Assembly: GCA_947632255.1 (NCBI GenBank)
Contig: CANROL010000001.1
Location: 1-25,358, forward strand
DNA length: 25,358 nt
DNA from: an uncultured Bacilli bacterium
Lineage (GTDB): Bacteria; Bacillota_I; Bacilli_A; RF39; UBA660
Direction: 5' to 3'
This document shows, in pieces, positions 1-6,644 of the stretch (the stretch's first letter is position 1; the number at the start of each line of letters is the position of its first letter). The position numbers and the translations under genes are program-made. Under the pieces are notes generated by a model, which had not been told where the DNA came from, did no database searches, and saw only the letters and a program-made list of their open reading frames with translations.

Positions 1-2
1 AT

Positions 3-74
3 AACACCCGCATACCATCAAGTGAAATTGATAAATTTATAAAAGAACTTGAACATAATTCAGTTAAATGCTAA
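3..74 (+). CDS. 3' end of a gene entering from the left (NTRIPSSEIDKFIKELEHNSVKC*), possibly a small HTH/excisionase-like protein
   Basis: Open frame 3 from the window edge to TAA at 72-74, followed by hairpins and converging on the minus-strand operon. Only 23 codons are visible. Confidence 0.35.
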   Translation, partial: NTRIPSSEIDKFIKELEHNSVKC

Positions 75-99
75 AAATAAAGCACTGATTAGCATTTTT

Positions 100-129
100 A
101 AAAGCAACGCCCTTTATGTGCTTGCTTTT
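100..129. terminator. Probable bidirectional intrinsic terminator
   Basis: AAAAGCAA(100-107)...TTGCTTTT(122-129) with A/T tracts on both sides, between convergent ORFs. A second inverted repeat AAATGCTAA/TTAGCATTT lies at 66-97. Confidence 0.6.
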
Positions 130-168
130 TTAATATATTATTTCTTAATTATGCTTTTAGTTTAATGT

Positions 169-891
169 TTACTTATTTTCATTATATTTTATCCATTCAC
201 TATATATTTCATTAAAATTATCAATTTTTTCAATACCAATTTTTAAAACATCTTTTATATTTACATTTGGGCAAATTTTAATATAATCAAAAATCTTATC
301 ATATTTATTTGACTTATTGCTCATTATCAAAGAATATATAGCATACAAACAAGCTTTATTTAAATCAATTCCTAAATTATTTTTGGCCATATCAAAATCA
401 ACTTCAAAAGTATCATAAATTTCATCTGAATTATCATAATCTGGATTTCCAACTTCTTCGCAAGTATAATTAGTATTAATTATTGATTCAAATAATGTAA
501 TAACTCTACCGTATTCTCTATATAAAACCAATTTTTTTATTAATTCATAAGTATCAGCAAATACTTCTTCTAATTCATGAGTGGGGTAATATACATAATC
601 AATATCAGCATCATAATAGCTATAAGTACCAGTTTCATAAGAATAGCCCTTAAAGCATATTTCCCCATTTTCTATTTCTTCATATTTTGTCAATATTTCA
701 TTATATTTTTTTAAAATATCTTCATCTATATTATTTTGCTCACCTTTAAAATTTTTGATTTTACAAATTATATATTCATAATAATCTGAGGGTAATTTAT
801 CTATTAATCCGTTTATTAAATCTATAACTTCATGAGCGGATAAAGTTTTTAATTCTTTATTTAATTCCATTTTAAAATTTTCTATATTCAT
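169..891 (-). CDS. Hypothetical acidic protein, last gene of the accessory operon
   Basis: 240-aa ORF, co-oriented with the operon, no recognisable catalytic motif. Confidence 0.75.
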   Translation of the reverse strand: MNIENFKMELNKELKTLSAHEVIDLINGLIDKLPSDYYEYIICKIKNFKGEQNNIDEDILKKYNEILTKYEEIENGEICFKGYSYETGTYSYYDADIDYVYYPTHELEEVFADTYELIKKLVLYREYGRVITLFESIINTNYTCEEVGNPDYDNSDEIYDTFEVDFDMAKNNLGIDLNKACLYAIYSLIMSNKSNKYDKIFDYIKICPNVNIKDVLKIGIEKIDNFNEIYSEWIKYNENK

Positions 892-913
892 GTTTTAAAC
901 TTCCAAGATTTAT

Positions 914-1342
914 CTAAATATATTTTATATTATTATCCTCACACCATTCAATTGCCAACTCTTTATATTTTTCATCTCTAAACTTATACCAATCATCAAT
1001 AATATCATAATTAATACACGTATCTTTAAATCTTCTAAATGCTCCACTTCCATTTATAGCAATATATAACTGATTATAAAGTCTTTCATCCTCAATTGTT
1101 TCAATAAATTCCTCCATCATATTATATTCATCAATATAAAATTTTGTTGGTAAACCAATATATTCATCATATATTTCCTCACATTCATCTTCTGATATAT
1201 CCGTGTATTCATTAATATAAATTATTTCACCATTCTTTGGATTTAAATAAGCTTCAGTATCTTGTCCCATATTAACAAATTCTAAAGCATCAATTATATC
1301 ATTTAATTTTACTTTCATAACTTTATCATTTTTATTAACCAT
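914..1342 (-). CDS. UPF0158 family protein
   Basis: KLNDIIDALE...YLNPKNGEIIY...MEEFIETIEDERLYNQLYIAINGSGAFRRFKD...WYKFRD...AIEWCEDNNI matches the UPF0158 pattern. Confidence 0.85.
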   Translation of the reverse strand: MVNKNDKVMKVKLNDIIDALEFVNMGQDTEAYLNPKNGEIIYINEYTDISEDECEEIYDEYIGLPTKFYIDEYNMMEEFIETIEDERLYNQLYIAINGSGAFRRFKDTCINYDIIDDWYKFRDEKYKELAIEWCEDNNIKYI

Positions 1343-2375
1343 TTTTATTATCCTCTTTCATTAACTCAACAGGCGTCCAGCCATTGTTTACCCATATTCT
1401 TGAATTATTATATATATCAGCGAGAAAATCTAATATTTTTTGAATATTCTCTTGAGTTATACCTACTTCCTGTTCATTAAGCATCTCAAGTAAAGGTTTA
1501 ATATTATCATCACAATATCTATTCATATCCGAGATTAATTTAATAATTTCTTCAATAGTATCTGATGATACCTTTTCTTTCTTTAAATAATTTTTAAACT
1601 TGATCTTAGCTTCAGTTTCTTCATAATAATTATAATCAGAATATTTAAGTAATTCTTCTAATTTAATTGGTTTTCTTTTTATAATTTTCTGTCTTGAAAT
1701 AATGTCTATTATTTCCTTTTTTAAATTTTTATCTCGTAAAACTCCATGAGCAAAATACATTTTATCATTTATTACATATATTTCCATATTATCAATTCTC
1801 TCACCAGAAAATAATGTTTTAGTTGGGGCTTCTAATTCTTTACCATTTCCATAATATAAACTATAGTAATAATTTAATTCACTACATGGTACCAAACCAT
1901 ACAATTCAACCATTGCTCTAATTAAATTATATACCTTTGTATTTTCCTCAACAGTTTTTTCAAATTGTTTTAAATCTATCTTTTTAATTACATTATAAAC
2001 ATCATCAGTCATTGAAATATAAGTTTTATTATTAATTTCAAATATAAAAATTAAACCCGTTGCATACAAGAAATAATATGTATCGGCACTCATATCATCA
2101 TCTTGAATAGTACCTTTATTATTCATTAAATCTTTTAATAAATTAAATTCTTTATCTATAAATCTTTCAATTAAATAGGTTATTATTTCTTCATCAGTAA
2201 GCGCGGTATATATTATTTGAATAAGTTCTTGTTTAGACTTATTACTTAATCTACAAAGATATAGAAGATTTCCTATATATTTTAAATCTTTAACAGTTAA
2301 ACCCTGAAGCAGTTCTATTAAATCTTTTATTATTAAAGAATCAACTGCATTTTCTAAATCAAATTGTTTTATCAT
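1335..2375 (-). CDS. Uncharacterised protein of the type usually ending in a SEC-C motif (absent here), with an N-terminal Rho_N/HeH-like helix pair
   Basis: N-terminal LQGLTVKDLKYIGNLLYLCRLSNKSKQELIQII; VELYGLVP; C-terminal YNNSRIWVNNGWTPVEL. Overlaps its neighbours by 8 and 17 nt. Confidence 0.65.
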   Translation of the reverse strand: MIKQFDLENAVDSLIIKDLIELLQGLTVKDLKYIGNLLYLCRLSNKSKQELIQIIYTALTDEEIITYLIERFIDKEFNLLKDLMNNKGTIQDDDMSADTYYFLYATGLIFIFEINNKTYISMTDDVYNVIKKIDLKQFEKTVEENTKVYNLIRAMVELYGLVPCSELNYYYSLYYGNGKELEAPTKTLFSGERIDNMEIYVINDKMYFAHGVLRDKNLKKEIIDIISRQKIIKRKPIKLEELLKYSDYNYYEETEAKIKFKNYLKKEKVSSDTIEEIIKLISDMNRYCDDNIKPLLEMLNEQEVGITQENIQKILDFLADIYNNSRIWVNNGWTPVELMKEDNKNG

Positions 2376-2736
2376 AGCATATATCTCCTAATAACTTCTT
2401 AATTATTTGTTTTATCTCAGTTGGAATATAATAAGAATAATGATTTCCATTATCATAAATAAAAATCACTAAAGATTCCATTTCTTCCTCATAAGGTGCC
2501 ACCCATTCAGAGTTTTCTTGATTAAGTAATCTTTTAAAATACATTTTAGTAGGTTTATCATCTTTATAAATATCTAACCAAAAATCAAAATCATCTAAAA
2601 TTTCATCTTTTAACTCATTTATATTATCAACACCAAATTCTTCAAGTTTTTCCTTAAGTAGTTCTTCATCCAAAGCCTTTAATGAAGATAATAAATCGAT
2701 ATTTCCTTTTGTTACTAAATACTTTTTAAACTTCAT
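2359..2736 (-). CDS. Hypothetical protein resembling the N-terminal domain of the downstream 346-aa protein
   Basis: 125-aa ORF with AGGAG RBS; VIFIYDNGNHYSYYIPTEIKQIIKKL resembles LIFIFEINNKTYISMTDDVYNVIKKI. Confidence 0.65.
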   Translation of the reverse strand: MKFKKYLVTKGNIDLLSSLKALDEELLKEKLEEFGVDNINELKDEILDDFDFWLDIYKDDKPTKMYFKRLLNQENSEWVAPYEEEMESLVIFIYDNGNHYSYYIPTEIKQIIKKLLGDICYDKTI

Positions 2737-2749
2737 TCATTACTCCTTT

Positions 2750-3346
2750 TTATCTTGCTTCATAACCATTCTTTATTAAAAGAACTAATCCTTTTAAATT
2801 TTTATTATCCGTTTTTAAATTATATTTTCGATAATCATATTTTTTATCAGTATCATATCCTGCTGTAAAATAGCTATTAGAATAGCCTAACTCATCAGTT
2901 TCTAATACTATATCTTTTAATTCTTCACTAGTTATATCATCTAACATTCCTAAGCCTTCACCTTGAGTTATTAAAGGATAATTCTTAGCATCATTAAAAC
3001 TTTGCAATTCTTCACATCCTAAATATGTAATTACAAATGTAGTGGGAGAACCATAGTCATATTCCATTTCCATAGTATCATTTTCTTTTAAATCAAGACT
3101 ACTTAACTTTGTTGTAATGGCACTTACTTTATTTTCATCATATATAGTATCTCTTGGATTTAATCTACAATCATAAATAATATCCTTATAAGCTATATTA
3201 AACATATGATATGCCAAAGAATTAAATGTTGCAAGTATCGTATAAGCAAGATCTGCTACAGTCATTCTATCAGTTATCTCAATTTCCCTCCATATTTTAT
3301 TTTCTAACCCTTCTATTCCTACATTAAATTTTAATACTTTATTCAT
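2750..3346 (-). CDS. pRiA4b ORF-3 / MM3350-like family protein
   Basis: IWREIEI...TVADLAYTILATF...HMF...MEYDYGS...YPLITQGEG motif order. GGAGG RBS; start overlaps the upstream stop by 1 nt. Confidence 0.8.
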   Translation of the reverse strand: MNKVLKFNVGIEGLENKIWREIEITDRMTVADLAYTILATFNSLAYHMFNIAYKDIIYDCRLNPRDTIYDENKVSAITTKLSSLDLKENDTMEMEYDYGSPTTFVITYLGCEELQSFNDAKNYPLITQGEGLGMLDDITSEELKDIVLETDELGYSNSYFTAGYDTDKKYDYRKYNLKTDNKNLKGLVLLIKNGYEAR

Positions 3347-4959
3347 TACTTTACCTCCATCTTATTAGTAATTAAATTAACAAATTTCACTTTATTTTCA
3401 CTATTTAAAACATTCATTATTTCTTCTTTGAAAGCTTTTCTATTACGATATAAAGGATACATCTCCTCAATCATATTATAAATAAATAATGAAGAATCGT
3501 TAATTTCATTCATCTTTTTTATATATTTACATAAACTGCGATATCGTTCTCGATCAGTTGCCCATTTAGCTTTTTCAATTATTCCTAGTTTATAAAAATC
3601 TAATAATTCTTTACTATATTTATCTTTTAATACATTTTGATAATCATAAAGTTTAGCCAAATCAGGATCTTTTTTAATTAAACCAAACAATTTATCGGGC
3701 TCATTTTCTTCTGCATAAATATTTTCTAAAATTCCCCGATTATTAGATTTTATTTTAGAGATTATTTCTTCCTTTAAATTTTTCCATTCAGAAATATTAC
3801 ATAAATTTTTTAATTCTTTATATCTTTTAAAATCATTAGTTTCAATTATTACTTCTGGTAATATTTCTTTCTTTTCTTGAAGCATATTATTTTCATCATA
3901 TACTTCTATTAATTTATCATAAGCCATATCCTTTCTTACATGATTTTTAATATCATCTTTTAGCATTTTTACTATTTCTTGAATTTTATTTTCATCTTTT
4001 AAATATTTAATTAATAAGTCTTTTACACCATAAATATCCACATTTTGATAACATATTTTTATAGCTTCATCTTTATCAATGTAATCATAAACTAATGATA
4101 TTTTATCTAAAGTACAATTAACAAAAATTCCATATGAAAATTGACAATTATCTAAAATTTTTATTACATTTTGTGCAGAATTTTTATCATGAACATAAAG
4201 AATAAAAGCATAAAGAGGAGCATCAGAAAAATCACCTAATTCATTGTTGCTAGCAATAGTATTTGCCCATTTTAAAAATTCTTTATAATATTCATCTTCA
4301 TATAATAATTTACTCGTCGAAGAACATAACATATAAAGCGAATCTTGATACTCACCATTAGATCCATCCATAAAAGTATCTTTTATAAAAAAATATGTAT
4401 GTTTAATCAATTCAAAAGCATTATTAAAGTTCTCTTCATCGATAAATTTTTCTATTTTATATGTAACTCTTGATATTAAATCCACAAAATATCTTCCATT
4501 ATAATAATTTACAAATCCATCTTTATCGCTTATATTTTTTAATTCATACTGCATTTCAGCATAAATTTTATTAAGCTCTGAAGTTGATTTATTTTTTCTT
4601 TTGCTTTTTTGAGCTCCTACTTCTAGCTCTGGAACCTCGTTATCAACTAAATAATATAAAACTGCCGCGATATGCTTACACATAAACTCCCCACCTTCTG
4701 AATAAGGGCAAGAACAATAACAAGCTTGAATTTCACCATTTTTAATTTCTAATTCCACTTTATAAATCTCAGATCCATCAATATAAGCATAGACATTATC
4801 TTTTTGATACCAAATATCACGAATTCTATTTTCATTATAATAACTCTGGCCTCGAGAAAGTATACTATATTCAAAATAATCCTCAAATTCGACATTTTCT
4901 AAAAACTTTTTCATCATATTTTCCTTTTTTAATTCTATATTTATCACACCAGTAAACAT
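3346..4959 (-). CDS. SWIM zinc-finger protein with helical C-terminal region (start may be ATG at 4917)
   Basis: ILSRGQSYY...VYAYIDGSEIYKV...CSCPYSEGGEFMCKHIAAVL (CxC-xn-CxH); C-terminal YRNRKAFKEEI. AAGGA lies before ATG 4917. Confidence 0.85.
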   Translation of the reverse strand: MFTGVINIELKKENMMKKFLENVEFEDYFEYSILSRGQSYYNENRIRDIWYQKDNVYAYIDGSEIYKVELEIKNGEIQACYCSCPYSEGGEFMCKHIAAVLYYLVDNEVPELEVGAQKSKRKNKSTSELNKIYAEMQYELKNISDKDGFVNYYNGRYFVDLISRVTYKIEKFIDEENFNNAFELIKHTYFFIKDTFMDGSNGEYQDSLYMLCSSTSKLLYEDEYYKEFLKWANTIASNNELGDFSDAPLYAFILYVHDKNSAQNVIKILDNCQFSYGIFVNCTLDKISLVYDYIDKDEAIKICYQNVDIYGVKDLLIKYLKDENKIQEIVKMLKDDIKNHVRKDMAYDKLIEVYDENNMLQEKKEILPEVIIETNDFKRYKELKNLCNISEWKNLKEEIISKIKSNNRGILENIYAEENEPDKLFGLIKKDPDLAKLYDYQNVLKDKYSKELLDFYKLGIIEKAKWATDRERYRSLCKYIKKMNEINDSSLFIYNMIEEMYPLYRNRKAFKEEIMNVLNSENKVKFVNLITNKMEVK

Positions 4960-4984
4960 TTTACTTCTTTTTATATTAAAGCTA

Positions 4985-6178
4985 TTAGCTATTCTTTAAA
5001 ATCAACTCCCTTAACTTATCAATTTGTCTATTTAATAAAATACATAATCTGTTAATTCTATTATCACTCATTTTAGTTAAATATTGATACTTATGTAATA
5101 AATCATCAAACCATTCCACAACACCATCTAATTTAGATATATCAATTCTTTTTAAATTTTTTACAACTTTTATTATTTCATCAAAAGGTTTTTCTTCATA
5201 AAATAATCTGCCACTTCCTGAAATATGTACTTCATCTTCATCATAATATTCAATGTTTAAACTTTGACCATTGTCAAATATAGGAGCAACATCAATCCAT
5301 TTTAAAGTGTTAACATCTCTAATAACTCCAAAGTTATTTAAATGTCTATCTTCATTCATAATTAGATAATCTAAAATATACATATTCTCTACTTTTTCAC
5401 GAGCATTCTTTATATTATTTTCTTCTAATTTTTTTATATATTCTTCATAATCTTCAACATTATTATATCTTTTCATATCATTTCTAATCTGATAACAAGT
5501 AATAAATTCTGTATCTTTAGTTATAAAACAAGGACATTTAGATACCACCATATCTTTATATATATCTATTGTATACTCTACATGATCAAATCCTAATCTT
5601 TTACATATTTCACTAGCCAATACTTCATTAAATGGTTGTAATACTTCATTTTTATAACCACCTTTTAATAAATATCTTGTTCCATCTTCAATAATCCAGG
5701 CTTTTTTAAGCATTCCATCAGTTGTATTATTAGGAGTTTTTAAAGATGATTCTTTGGTTATAATTTTACTATTCGTAGATAAAGAAGCTTCCATAAATTC
5801 TGCATAATCAAAGTCATTATCAAAGAAATTAATATCATCGTATGAAATATTACTACCAACTGGCTTTAACCAGTATTGATCTGATAATGATAAGCCAAAA
5901 GCCTTATCTAAAAGTTCGTAGGGAGCAGTTATATTAAGTCTATGAAGTAACAAATCTAATTTATCACGCCATGAAGGAATACCTCTTCCTTTAAACCACT
6001 CACTTAAATTAGTTCTAAAAGGTGTATCATTAATATCATCTTCAATGTAAAAGCTATTTAAAATATAAGGAGCATAATTAATATTTTTAACTTCATAAAT
6101 TCTTGTAAAAACACTAGTTGCAGTATCATATTCTATAGTTAATACTTCAATATTTTTATTCATTAAAATACATTGCAT
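4985..6178 (-). CDS. HipA-like (HipA_C) Ser/Thr kinase
   Basis: TTDGMLKKAW, YLLKGG, NEVLASEIC, NEDRHLNNFG catalytic loop, APIFDNGQSL; N-terminal GLSLSDQYW of the Firmicutes HipA-like subfamily. Confidence 0.85.
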   Translation of the reverse strand: MQCILMNKNIEVLTIEYDTATSVFTRIYEVKNINYAPYILNSFYIEDDINDTPFRTNLSEWFKGRGIPSWRDKLDLLLHRLNITAPYELLDKAFGLSLSDQYWLKPVGSNISYDDINFFDNDFDYAEFMEASLSTNSKIITKESSLKTPNNTTDGMLKKAWIIEDGTRYLLKGGYKNEVLQPFNEVLASEICKRLGFDHVEYTIDIYKDMVVSKCPCFITKDTEFITCYQIRNDMKRYNNVEDYEEYIKKLEENNIKNAREKVENMYILDYLIMNEDRHLNNFGVIRDVNTLKWIDVAPIFDNGQSLNIEYYDEDEVHISGSGRLFYEEKPFDEIIKVVKNLKRIDISKLDGVVEWFDDLLHKYQYLTKMSDNRINRLCILLNRQIDKLRELILKNS

Positions 6179-6207
6179 ATCCTCACCTCATTCGTTTTAT
6201 TGCCATT

Positions 6208-6236
6208 ATTGTACCATGGATACTTTAAAATGTAAA
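6208..6236 (-). promoter_or_regulatory. Sigma-A promoter of the accessory operon
   Basis: TTTACA(6236-6231)-17 nt-TACAAT(6213-6208) with TG extension; GAGGTGAGG RBS before the kinase. A second TGnTATAAT lies at 6254-6262. Confidence 0.65.
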
Positions 6237-6292
6237 TTAATTGATGAATACTCATTATAACAAAACTTTTTATTTATTTAATTTTAAAAGAT

Positions 6293-6601
6293 TTAATTAA
6301 CTACACAATGACTATCCCCACCTCCGGCATTAATGTGGTTAGATACCATTATTACATCATTACCTTTACCATAAAAGCTTTGTGCTTTCTTAGGCCTGTT
6401 AGTGGAATCCAGTGTTACATCACTATCTCTAGTAAGTGAGTTTTCTATACCTAATTCATTTAATCTATCAGCCATATATTTACTTATCATTAAAGTATAA
6501 TCCTTTTCAACAATCCCATTAGCACTTGTACCAGGATCAACTCCTCCATGCCCAGGATCAATAACCACCTTTTTAGTTGCTCTACCATCTACAATATCCA
6601 T
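6293..6601 (-). pseudogene. 5' fragment of an N-acetylmuramoyl-L-alanine amidase (Amidase_3, CwlC-like)
   Basis: VVIDPGHGG, EKDYTL, LTRDSD and SNHINAGGG are present, then SHCVVN*. The C-terminal half with the catalytic Glu is missing. AGGTGA RBS precedes ATG 6601. Confidence 0.85.
6299..6340. repeat. att-like imperfect inverted repeat at the amidase breakpoint
   Basis: AACTACACAATG(6299-6310)-17 nt-CATTAATGTGGTT(6328-6340), centred near 6319 in the Gly-Gly codons. Confidence 0.5.
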
Positions 6602-6616
6602 GTTTATCACCTAATA

Positions 6617-6644
6617 TAAAGTATGTTTAAAAATTATTTATGTT
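6617..6644 (-). promoter_or_regulatory. Possible sigma-K/sigma-E-type promoter for the amidase
   Basis: AACA-15 nt-CATACTTTA matches the CATAnnnTA -10 element. AT-rich context weakens this. Confidence 0.35.

What the first reader, a model, noticed from the sequence alone, without database searches (positions are those of the whole stretch)
6293..6340. Amidase gene split at an att-like site: candidate skin-like gene-interrupting element
Seen: the Amidase_3 frame is conserved to SNHINAGGGD and then ends in SHCVVN*. The break lies in an imperfect inverted repeat (AACTACACAATG-17-CATTAATGTGGTT) centred on the Gly-Gly codons. Knowledge: serine-recombinase elements such as skin in sigK and SPbeta in spsM interrupt sporulation genes and restore them by excision. 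Inference: this is one att junction, the 3' half of the amidase and a recombinase lie left of the window, and excision would rebuild the gene.
Basis: partly seen in the sequence, partly recalled or inferred. Interest (0 to 1): 0.75.

Follow-up and report, generated by a model that had tools for sequence, protein, structure and literature searches.

The report
Mobile island splitting a sporulation amidase
A cell-wall amidase gene with a late spore mother-cell type promoter is cut in two by a mobile DNA island of a serine-recombinase family; the same island family sits at the same codon in dozens of uncultured gut spore-formers and probably leaves during sporulation to rebuild the gene, but that excision is not shown.

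Summary
Window 6293-6610 (-) is the first 102-105 codons of an Amidase_3+LysM gene, and it stops inside an attL site. The shared core AGGTGG lies at 6318-6323, the host arm at 6324-6345 and the element arm at 6295-6317.

The missing 3' half lies on another contig of the same assembly (C70), behind a matching attR. Joining the two in silico gives an uninterrupted 407-aa amidase.

In relatives both halves sit on one contig, 4.2-14.7 kb apart. They flank islands that carry a large serine recombinase (LSR) and mostly defence-type cargo. I found 23 complete elements and about 75 further attR junctions in metagenomes.

The amidase has no signal peptide. An AC-N16-CATAnnnTA motif, which I recognise as sigma-K-like, precedes it in 32 of 32 orthologs. 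In this genome the same motif also precedes gerE, cotE, cotZ, spoVIF and a bclA-like gene.

Three points stay open:
- Excision during sporulation is inferred, not shown.
- This assembly lacks the recombinase; the contig ends inside the element.
- The elements move horizontally, so a plain insertion into a dispensable gene remains a live rival.

This scan has already met the same family on other DNA (e1-5217475, e1-3593984, e1-1240593, e1-1227069). My literature searches found no published description.

The parts
6293..6610 (-). 5' fragment of an Amidase_3+LysM N-acetylmuramoyl-L-alanine amidase gene. It is 105 codons from the GTG at 6610, or more likely 102 codons from the ATG at 6601, which follows the AGGTGA ribosome-binding site. 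The last five residues (SHCVV-N) and the stop codon come from the element.
   Evidence: 89-76% identical to the 5' parts of orthologs in the same genus.
6617..6643 (-). Mother-cell (sigma-K-like) promoter motif of the amidase. AC lies at 6642-6643, followed by a 16-nt spacer and CATACTTTA at 6617-6625. The ribosome-binding site AGGTGA is at 6607-6612.
   Evidence: CATAnnnTA is present in 32 of 32 non-identical ortholog upstream regions and C at -17 in 29 of 32, while the flanks vary. In G000 the same motif precedes gerE, spoVIF, bclA-like, cotE and cotZ genes.
6324..6345 (-). Host (B) arm of attL. It lies in the codons for SNHINAG.
   Evidence: Identical in register to the attB of intact orthologs.
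6318..6323 (-). Core AGGTGG shared by attL (window) and attR (C70). The crossover is inferred to lie inside it.
   Evidence: The core recurs, with single-base variants in a few junctions, across more than 50 attL and attR junctions.
6295..6317 (-). Element (P') arm of attL. In the sense direction it reads GGATAGTCATTGTGTAGTTAATT.
   Evidence: It is the inverted partner of the P arm beside the 3' half on C70 (TGTTACACATTGACTATCGCC). It matches the family consensus CGATAGTCATTGTGTAAC over GATAGTCATTGTGTA.
1..6317 (-). Left part of the integrated element, cut off by the contig end. All cargo genes run in the amidase direction: HipA-like kinase 4985-6178, SWIM protein 3346-4959, PRiA4_ORF3 2750-3346, ORFs 2359-2736 and 1335-2375, UPF0158 914-1342, ORF 169-891.
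   Evidence: Pfam hits. The SWIM, PRiA4 and neighbouring genes recur at 69-81% nucleotide identity in loci L080, L069 and L058, which carry a recombinase of the same family. No tnpV and no recombinase in this part.

Best explanation
Window 6295-6345 is the attL junction of an integrated, non-phage mobile island. Window 1-6317 is its left part; the rest is unassembled apart from about 0.65 kb on contig C70. The island inserted by large-serine-recombinase recombination into the codons NAGG|GD of an Amidase_3+LysM gene.

That gene has no signal peptide and a promoter of the late mother-cell type. It is most likely a CwlC-like enzyme made in the mother cell, either for mother-cell lysis or for work on the spore envelope. 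Split, neither half can act: the His, Glu and His zinc-ligand motifs lie in the 5' piece and the conserved E-x-G-F motif lies in the 3' piece.

The most likely mechanism is that the recombinase recombines attL with attR in the terminally differentiating mother cell. This releases a circle and rebuilds the amidase, which the same promoter then expresses. The forespore keeps the island.

Shown:
- both junctions;
- the in-frame rebuild;
- the recombinase and att sites in relatives;
- the conserved promoter motif;
- sporulation genes in the genome;
- horizontal mobility of the island.

Inferred:
- that excision happens at all in this strain;
- that it is timed to sporulation;
- what triggers it.

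In 15 of 23 complete relatives, a tnpV gene sits 23-45 nt behind the truncated amidase's stop codon. Integration would therefore put it under the host's mother-cell promoter. This copy lacks tnpV.
For: Structure:
- The ORF and the domain are cut as described.
- The 3' half with attR lies on C70, and the join gives an intact 407-aa protein.
- The same split occurs in 8 of 25 genomes sampled in the genus, against 9 intact.
- In G003, G004 and G001 both halves lie on one contig, 14.7, 7.4 and 13.4 kb apart.
- Each of the four relatives' recombinases scanned shows the Pfam LSR triad.
- In 23 non-redundant complete elements of 4.2-14.7 kb, the recombinase is present in 23 of 23.
- The reconstructed attP is a near-perfect palindrome around CCAGGTGG.
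- 61 canonical and about 14 variant attR junctions occur in metagenome contigs.

Sporulation link:
- Spo0A is present in 31 of 31 genus genomes.
- SpoIVA and SpoVAD are present in 5 of 5 genomes tested.
- An uninterrupted sigK and a sigE-like gene are present.
- AC-N16-CATAnnnTA is invariant before the amidase in 32 of 32 orthologs.
- In G000 the motif marks GerE, SpoVIF, BclA-like, CotE and CotZ genes.
- The Amidase_3 domain starts at residue 5, so there is no export signal.
- cwlC and cwlH are late mother-cell lysis hydrolases in B. subtilis (PMC517825).
- The published intervening elements I read about all sit in sporulation genes: sigK, spsM, spoVFB, spoVR, gerE and yabG (PMC4191935, PMC5595907, PMC10747680).

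Gene not decaying:
- 83 of 91 distinct 3' halves pass a strict open-frame and motif test.
- Of the other 8, three are motif variants, three are catalytic-domain-only and two are truncated.
Against: - No attB or attP junction was seen. Logan contigs of four mouse-gut runs laid on the complete G003 element gave no listed attL-to-attR joint, only contig breaks at both cores.
- The attP pattern had 0 matches in metagenome and viral contigs, against about 75 attR.
- Recombinase identity does not track host amidase identity (Spearman -0.02 over 496 pairs). Recombinases 95-100% identical sit in hosts whose amidases are 45-55% identical. Intact halves can therefore simply reflect recent insertion.
- This assembly holds no cognate recombinase, no tnpV, and neither of the conserved left-end and recombinase-leader motifs.
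- The recombinase in relatives has a vegetative-type extended -10 (TGnTATAAT), not a sporulation promoter.
- TnpX-type recombinases can excise without a directionality factor, and serine-recombinase IMEs are known to sit in dispensable genes (PMC5704250).
Confidence: 0.55

Rival explanations
1. This is an ordinary integrative mobilizable island that uses a conserved catalytic-motif sequence of a dispensable amidase gene as a landing pad. It excises only sporadically, for transfer, and not as part of development. Carriers simply lack this amidase.
For: - The elements are clearly horizontally mobile and turn over fast.
- Their nearest solved relative is TnpX of Tn4451, and 15 of 23 carry TnpV.
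- TnpX needs no directionality factor, and site-specific serine-recombinase IMEs are reported to disrupt dispensable genes (PMC5704250).
- 9 of 25 genomes sampled in the genus carry the intact gene and 8 the split one, so both states are viable.
- No excised form was seen.
- The recombinase promoter looks vegetative.
Against: - The target is a gene with an invariant mother-cell-type promoter. Under this rival that is a coincidence, although it is the rule for the intervening elements shown to excise.
- In most relatives tnpV and the next ORF are placed to be read from that promoter.
- No conserved relaxase or mobilization gene appeared among the element core genes.
- Very few 3' halves are decayed.
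Confidence: 0.33
2. In this strain the island is immobilized because the recombinase has been lost, so the amidase is permanently knocked out and is on the way to decay.
For: - No cognate recombinase, tnpV or 30-aa leader ORF in the assembly.
- The left end diverges from the family consensus after GATAGTCATTGTGTA.
- A decayed example exists in L085: the recombinase is frameshifted into three pieces and the 3' amidase half is replaced.
Against: - The assembly is only 73% complete and lies in 131 contigs. The window contig ends inside the element and C70 ends 0.65 kb into its other end.
- Both att arms and the core are intact, and both gene halves are open.
- Rabbit-gut relatives with the same divergent left-end type (L079, L080) do carry a recombinase.
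Confidence: 0.1
3. There is no element at all: the truncation is a simple deletion, a pseudogene or an assembly chimera.
For: Only the truncated ORF itself supports this.
Against: - The 3' half with a matching attR is in the same assembly.
- Identical junctions occur in independent assemblies from mouse, rabbit, goat, human and other guts.
Confidence: 0.02

Closest known systems
gin, the gerE-intervening element of Bacillus cereus ATCC 10987 (GirC recombinase plus the 42-aa factor GirX; PMC5595907)
   Same: - It is a non-phage island that carries restriction-modification and other cargo.
- It is inserted by a large serine recombinase inside the coding region of a late mother-cell gene.
- It is flanked by a short common core with inverted arms, and excision restores the frame.
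- Its directionality factor is very small. The family here has a conserved 30-34-aa ORF directly upstream of the recombinase.
   Different: - The target gene is an amidase, not gerE.
- The hosts are uncultured gut Bacilli with genomes of roughly 0.7-1.6 Mb in the order sampled.
- Each element has one recombinase, of the TnpX type, often with TnpV.
- Size is 4-15 kb rather than 28.6 kb.
- Excision during sporulation is demonstrated for gin and not here.
skin in sigK (B. subtilis SpoIVCA; C. difficile CD1231 with CD1234) and SPbeta in spsM (SprA with SprB) (PMC5025042, PMC4191935, PMC5499854)
   Same: A mother-cell gene is split by an element that carries a large serine recombinase. In SPbeta and in C. 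difficile skin the directionality factor is under sporulation-sigma control (PMC5595907). The recombinase here has a vegetative-type promoter motif, which would fit the same division of labour.
   Different: - Those elements are prophages or prophage remnants. The core genes conserved across the elements here include no phage structural genes.
- The best phage-collection match to the recombinase is at most 34% identical.
- sigK itself is uninterrupted in these genomes.
Tn4451/Tn4453 integrative mobilizable elements of Clostridium (TnpX, TnpV, TnpZ; PMC5704250, PMC3158075)
   Same: - The best solved-structure match of the recombinase is the TnpX catalytic domain (2mhc, E 3e-25).
- TnpV (PF14198) sits at one end in 15 of 23 elements.
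- They are small cargo-carrying islands that presumably excise as circles.
   Different: - Tn4451 inserts with low specificity at a 2-bp target. This family uses one site in one gene.
- No conserved relaxase was seen.
- The cargo is defence-type rather than antibiotic resistance.
- The window's own copy lacks tnpV.
CwlC of B. subtilis (late mother-cell lysis amidase; PMC517825)
   Same: It has an Amidase_3 catalytic domain followed by a cell-wall-binding domain. The gene here has no signal peptide and a late mother-cell-type promoter.
   Different: - The wall-binding repeats here are LysM: 5 in the intact G021 protein, and 3 motif matches in the G000 join.
- Orthology to cwlC was not tested.
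- The function is inferred from architecture and promoter only.

Membership tests
Sporulation gene-intervening elements (skin, SPbeta, vfbin, vrin, gin, yin) | The element interrupts the coding region of a gene expressed in the sporulating mother cell. | tested here: inconclusive
   The interruption is shown. Mother-cell expression is inferred from the invariant AC-N16-CATAnnnTA motif. The motif also precedes GerE, CotE, CotZ, SpoVIF and BclA-like genes in G000. No expression data.
Sporulation gene-intervening elements (skin, SPbeta, vfbin, vrin, gin, yin) | The element encodes its own site-specific (large serine) recombinase. | tested here: inconclusive
   Met in 23 of 23 complete elements of relatives. 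Not found in G000's 73%-complete assembly; the element is split across contig ends.
Sporulation gene-intervening elements (skin, SPbeta, vfbin, vrin, gin, yin) | attL and attR share a short common core flanked by inverted arms, and a precise join restores the open reading frame. | tested here: met
   Core AGGTGG; the P and P' arms are inverted partners. The join gives a 407-aa ORF that is colinear with intact orthologs.
Sporulation gene-intervening elements (skin, SPbeta, vfbin, vrin, gin, yin) | Excision occurs during sporulation, in the mother cell. | not testable with these tools
   Only assembled contigs of public runs were available. No attB or attP joint was listed, and attP was absent from contig collections.
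Sporulation gene-intervening elements (skin, SPbeta, vfbin, vrin, gin, yin) | A directionality factor or the recombinase is under sporulation control. | tested here: inconclusive
   There are only candidates. tnpV lies 23-45 nt behind the truncated amidase, so it would be read from the host promoter. A 30-34-aa ORF lies upstream of the recombinase. Neither is present in G000.
Large serine recombinases | Resolvase catalytic domain, Recombinase domain and zinc-ribbon domain in a protein of about 500 aa. | tested here: met
   All three Pfam domains are present in each of the four recombinases tested, 525-529 aa. This applies to relatives' elements, not to a gene in the window.
Tn4451/Tn4453-type integrative mobilizable elements | A TnpX-like recombinase together with TnpV. 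| tested here: inconclusive
   TnpX is the best PDB match. TnpV is present in 15 of 23 relatives and absent from G000.
Tn4451/Tn4453-type integrative mobilizable elements | Low target specificity (a 2-bp target) and a relaxase with oriT for mobilization. | tested here: not met
   Insertion is at a single site in one gene in more than 90 junctions. No conserved relaxase appeared among the core gene clusters, although a dedicated relaxase search was not run.
Amidase_3 N-acetylmuramoyl-L-alanine amidases | A complete PF01520 domain. | tested here: met
   The window fragment covers profile positions 1-80 of 174. Intact orthologs cover 1-173. The joined G000 protein aligns across the junction without a gap. 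It is not CwlD: the CwlD-like paralog is on C53 (203.5 bits, just under the 221.55-bit cut-off).

The most novel reading that the evidence does not exclude
Integration wires the island's excision to the gene it interrupts. The host's late mother-cell promoter would read through the truncated amidase into the island's left end.

That left end holds tnpV and an 18-nt motif (TGTATAACAATTAAAGCC). The motif is complementary to a conserved stretch in the recombinase leader. The same leader stretch can also pair with the recombinase start-codon region.

The read-through RNA, or TnpV, would then switch on recombinase translation or activity only when the amidase is due. The island would cut itself out just in time and only in the mother cell. 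This would be a self-timed, promoter-capture form of developmental gene rearrangement, carried by a horizontally mobile defence island.
Probability: 0.15. Interest if true: 0.8.

Novelty: new member of a known kind. Interest (0 to 1): 0.55.

Why it matters
If excision is developmental, this adds a cell-wall amidase to the short list of genes rebuilt by DNA rearrangement during sporulation: sigK, spsM, spoVFB, spoVR, gerE and yabG.

It would also extend the phenomenon from cultured Bacillus and Clostridium to a large group of uncultured, small-genome gut Bacilli, where about a third of the genomes sampled in this genus carry such an island.

It would further mean that anti-phage defence and other cargo can spread on islands that cost the host nothing, because they sit in a gene needed only in a cell that is about to die.

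If excision is not developmental, the family is still a clean natural set of site-specific serine recombinases with well-defined attB and attP sites. It would also be a case of recurrent knock-out of a spore-release enzyme.

Tried and rejected
- The cognate recombinase, TnpV and the HTH_36 protein were sought in G000 with tblastn. None was found; only a 37%-identical recombinase on C34.
- Read laying on the complete G003 element with four mouse-gut runs. All runs are Logan contigs. Contigs break at both att cores in three runs, but no attL-to-attR joint was listed. Inconclusive.
- The attP pattern gave 0 hits in metagenome contigs and in viral contigs. An attR control pattern also gave 0 in viral contigs, so that collection does not hold the family at all.
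- dN/dS of split halves was tried as a test of retained function. The median is 0.24, but it is uninformative because the elements are horizontally mobile.
- The hairpin in the recombinase leader: both arms are invariant in 20 of 20 sequences, so there is no covariation for or against it.
- The base-composition profile shows no island signature; GC is 0.21-0.29 throughout the window.
- The reading that this amidase is CwlD was rejected. The CwlD-like paralog is on C53, and the split gene scores only 65.8 bits on that model.
- A prophage origin was rejected. The conserved core genes include no phage structural genes, and the best phage-collection match to the recombinase is at most 34% identical.

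Full report
**1. What is in the window**

The window is the first 25,358 bases of contig C1. The assembly is 1.02 Mb in 131 contigs and 73% complete. It comes from rabbit gut by the runs that hold it.

Pfam Amidase_3 covers only profile positions 1-80 of 174. Downstream in the gene's direction lie seven co-oriented genes, then the contig end: a HipA-like kinase, a SWIM protein, a PRiA4_ORF3 protein, two unknowns, a UPF0158 protein and one more unknown.

**2. The gene is split, not deleted**

In 9 genomes of the same genus the ortholog is a 401-469-aa open frame. In G021, the one inspected in detail, it has an Amidase_3 domain and five LysM repeats. In 8 genomes, including this one, the ORF stops after about 102-109 aa at the same place.

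A search with the intact protein found the 3' part in each of these genomes:
- this genome: C70:4702-5661 (-);
- G003: same contig and strand, 14.7 kb away;
- G004: same contig and strand, 7.4 kb away;
- G001: same contig and strand, 13.4 kb away.

Read in the gene's direction, the two G000 junctions are:
- window: ...AATGCCGGAGGTGG|GGATAGTCATTGTGTAGTT...
- C70: ...GTTACACATTGACTATCGCCAGGTGG|TGATGGTGCTGAA...

The shared core is AGGTGG (window 6318-6323). The two element arms are inverted partners, so the reconstructed attP is a near-palindrome. In G004 it is perfect: 18-nt arms around CCAGGTGG.

Joining the host sides gives a 407-aa ORF reading ...VSNHINAGGGDGAEIIYALRNSD.... It is 72% identical over 400 aa to the intact G021 protein, with no gap at the junction.

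**3. The element family**

Each complete element in relatives has a 525-529-aa protein with the Resolvase, Recombinase and Zn_ribbon_recom domains. Four of them are 76-83% identical to one another.

A scan of one genome per species returned 79 loci. Most are gut MAGs labelled uncultured Bacilli, Tenericutes, 'Clostridium sp. CAG:433' or 'CAG:710', or 'Mycoplasma sp. CAG:472'.
- In 20 of these loci both amidase halves flank the recombinase on one contig.
- In about 25 more the 3' half follows the recombinase within 1-6 kb.
- The attL and attR sequences are conserved throughout.

Twenty-three non-redundant complete elements measure 4.2-14.7 kb. Their shared genes are:
- the recombinase, in 23 of 23;
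- an HTH_36/DnaD_N-like protein, in 19 of 23;
- TnpV (PF14198), in 15 of 23;
- a roughly 100-aa ORF, in 12 of 23;
- a 30-34-aa ORF directly upstream of the recombinase, seen in most recombinase-bearing loci.

The rest is variable cargo. It includes type I restriction-modification, N6 methylases, Fic, a KAP NTPase and a Bro-N protein.

The best solved relative of the recombinase is the TnpX catalytic domain. The phage collection holds nothing above 34% identity. A P-arm-plus-core pattern found 61 canonical and about 14 variant attR junctions in metagenome contigs.

**4. This strain's copy**

- Its left end matches the family only over GATAGTCATTGTGTA. It lacks tnpV and the conserved left-end motif.
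- Its cargo genes recur at 69-81% nucleotide identity in loci L080, L069 and L058, which carry a recombinase of the same family; all three MAGs bear the 'Lapin' label.
- No cognate recombinase is in the assembly. Both contigs end inside the element, so this is as likely an assembly gap as a real loss.

**5. Is the amidase a sporulation gene?**

- The genus has Spo0A in 31 of 31 genomes. SpoIVA and SpoVAD are present in 5 of 5 tested. An uninterrupted sigK and a second sigE-like gene are present.
- In 32 non-identical ortholog upstream regions, split or intact, CATAnnnTA is invariant and AC lies 16 nt upstream (C in 29 of 32). The positions between vary freely. From my own knowledge of B. subtilis promoters, this is the sigma-K consensus. 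The logos are in PMC517825.
- A crude scan of G000 for the motif 8-45 nt before start codons gave 11 genes, against 4 and 7 for two scrambled controls. By Pfam the other ten include GerE, SpoVIF, a BclA-like collagen protein, CotE, CotZ and a family-2 glycosyltransferase.
- The Amidase_3 domain begins at residue 5, so there is no export signal. This fits a protein made inside the mother cell, as B. subtilis CwlC is (PMC517825).

**6. Does the element leave?**

On evolutionary time it does. Recombinase identity is uncorrelated with host amidase identity (Spearman -0.02 over 496 pairs). Recombinases 95-100% identical sit in hosts whose amidases are 45-55% identical. Sister species carry scar-free intact genes.

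That same mobility weakens the argument from intact halves, although decay is rare:
- 83 of 91 distinct 3' halves pass a strict test;
- three more are only motif variants;
- three have the catalytic domain but no LysM repeats;
- two are truncated.

One decayed case exists. In L085 the recombinase is frameshifted and the 3' half is lost.

Direct evidence for excision is missing. Contigs of four mouse-gut runs laid on the G003 element break at both cores but show no listed attL-to-attR joint. attP was not found in contig collections. The one exception is L051, which holds an attP inside a contig, probably a tandem, together with a secondary-site junction.

**7. How excision might be timed**

In most relatives the truncated amidase's stop codon lies inside a conserved motif, and tnpV starts 23-45 nt later. 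The host's mother-cell promoter should therefore read into tnpV. TnpV was postulated to be Xis-like (PMC3158075), although TnpX needs no helper (PMC5704250).

The recombinase itself has a TGnTATAAT extended -10. Its leader contains GGCTTTAGTTGTTATACA, complementary to the left-end motif. The duplex z-score is -3.7 to -7.2 in 15 of the 18 complete elements analysed, and two of the remaining three lack the motif at both places.

Part of that leader can also pair with the start-codon region. The pairing is invariant in 20 of 20 sequences, so it shows no covariation. These motifs also resemble the att arm motif GTGTAAC, so a recombinase operator is an equally good reading. I treat this as a lead, not a finding.

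**8. Comparison and verdict**

The structure matches the published class of sporulation gene-intervening elements. It is closest to gin in gerE, a non-phage element with a 42-aa helper, GirX (PMC5595907). Its recombination module is related to Tn4451 (PMC5704250).

My three literature searches returned no paper describing an amidase-intervening element. Earlier notes of this scan describe the same family on other genomes and reach the same reading.

I rate the structural claim at about 0.95. I rate developmental excision at about 0.5-0.6 for the family, and somewhat less for this strain.

Noticed in passing
L033:2790-2810 and L033:9960-10000 (same pattern in 15 of 18 complete elements); absent from the window: An 18-nt motif just inside attL (TGTATAACAATTAAAGCC) is complementary to a conserved stretch of the recombinase leader (GGCTTTAGTTGTTATACA). 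Some differences between the two are G-U compatible. Two of the three elements without it lack the motif at both places. It could be an RNA-RNA switch or a protein operator.
   Followed up: partly
L024:9946-10025 and 19 other loci (alignment A2): TGTTATAC in the recombinase leader can pair with GTATAACA at the start codon, leaving the ribosome-binding site in the loop. Both arms are invariant in 20 of 20 sequences, including synonymous sites of codons 2-4. There is no covariation.
   Followed up: partly
about 115-120 nt upstream of the recombinase start in L024, L033, L043, L057 and others: A conserved 30-34-aa ORF (MFNITETFKDDSPN...YIKSVINN) with its own ribosome-binding site lies directly upstream of the recombinase in most recombinase-bearing loci. 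Its size is close to the 42-aa directionality factor GirX of gin.
   Followed up: partly
L051:1842 and L051:11509: 'Clostridium sp. CAG:433' has an intact attP inside a contig, probably two elements in tandem. It also has a P-arm junction with non-amidase DNA. Its nearby intact amidase has lost the attB motif (SNMLGNIGSGAE in place of SNHINAGGGDGAE).
   Followed up: partly
L085:10001-13000: A decayed copy. The recombinase is frameshifted into three ORFs, the attR arm joins unrelated DNA, and a different 267-aa amidase follows. A second recombinase lies 2.4 kb further on.
   Followed up: partly
L013 / L109 (G023:C11) and L006 (G024:C2): Two genus members are broken at the same amidase codons but with a different element arm (GATACATATTTTGTGATT and GCAAGCAGATTTTGTGATT). 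In G023 the left-end genes also differ: a 171-aa and a 349-aa ORF on the opposite strand, then a type I restriction-modification-like gene trio. This points to a second element subtype using the same attB.
   Followed up: partly
G000:C34:475-2016 (L121): A second large serine recombinase, 37% identical to the family studied, lies upstream of a gene whose sequence looks SpoVAC-like (not scanned against Pfam) and beside GNAT-like and LysM ORFs. I did not determine what it is inserted in.
   Followed up: no
order-level survey: 103 of 201 genomes of the order have at least one recombinase matching the profile at E<=1e-100. The scores fall in several tiers, and some genomes hold up to four copies. 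These small genomes carry many serine-recombinase elements whose targets are unknown.
   Followed up: no
G000:C3:9615-9821, C11:11484-11723, C40:2690-3421, C106:2764-3297, C109:3341-3778: The AC-N16/17-CATAnnnTA motif close to the start codon picks out GerE, SpoVIF, a BclA-like protein, CotE and CotZ in this genome.
   Followed up: partly
Parts of it recur, in a different order, in loci L080, L069 and L058, which carry a recombinase of the same family.
   Followed up: partly
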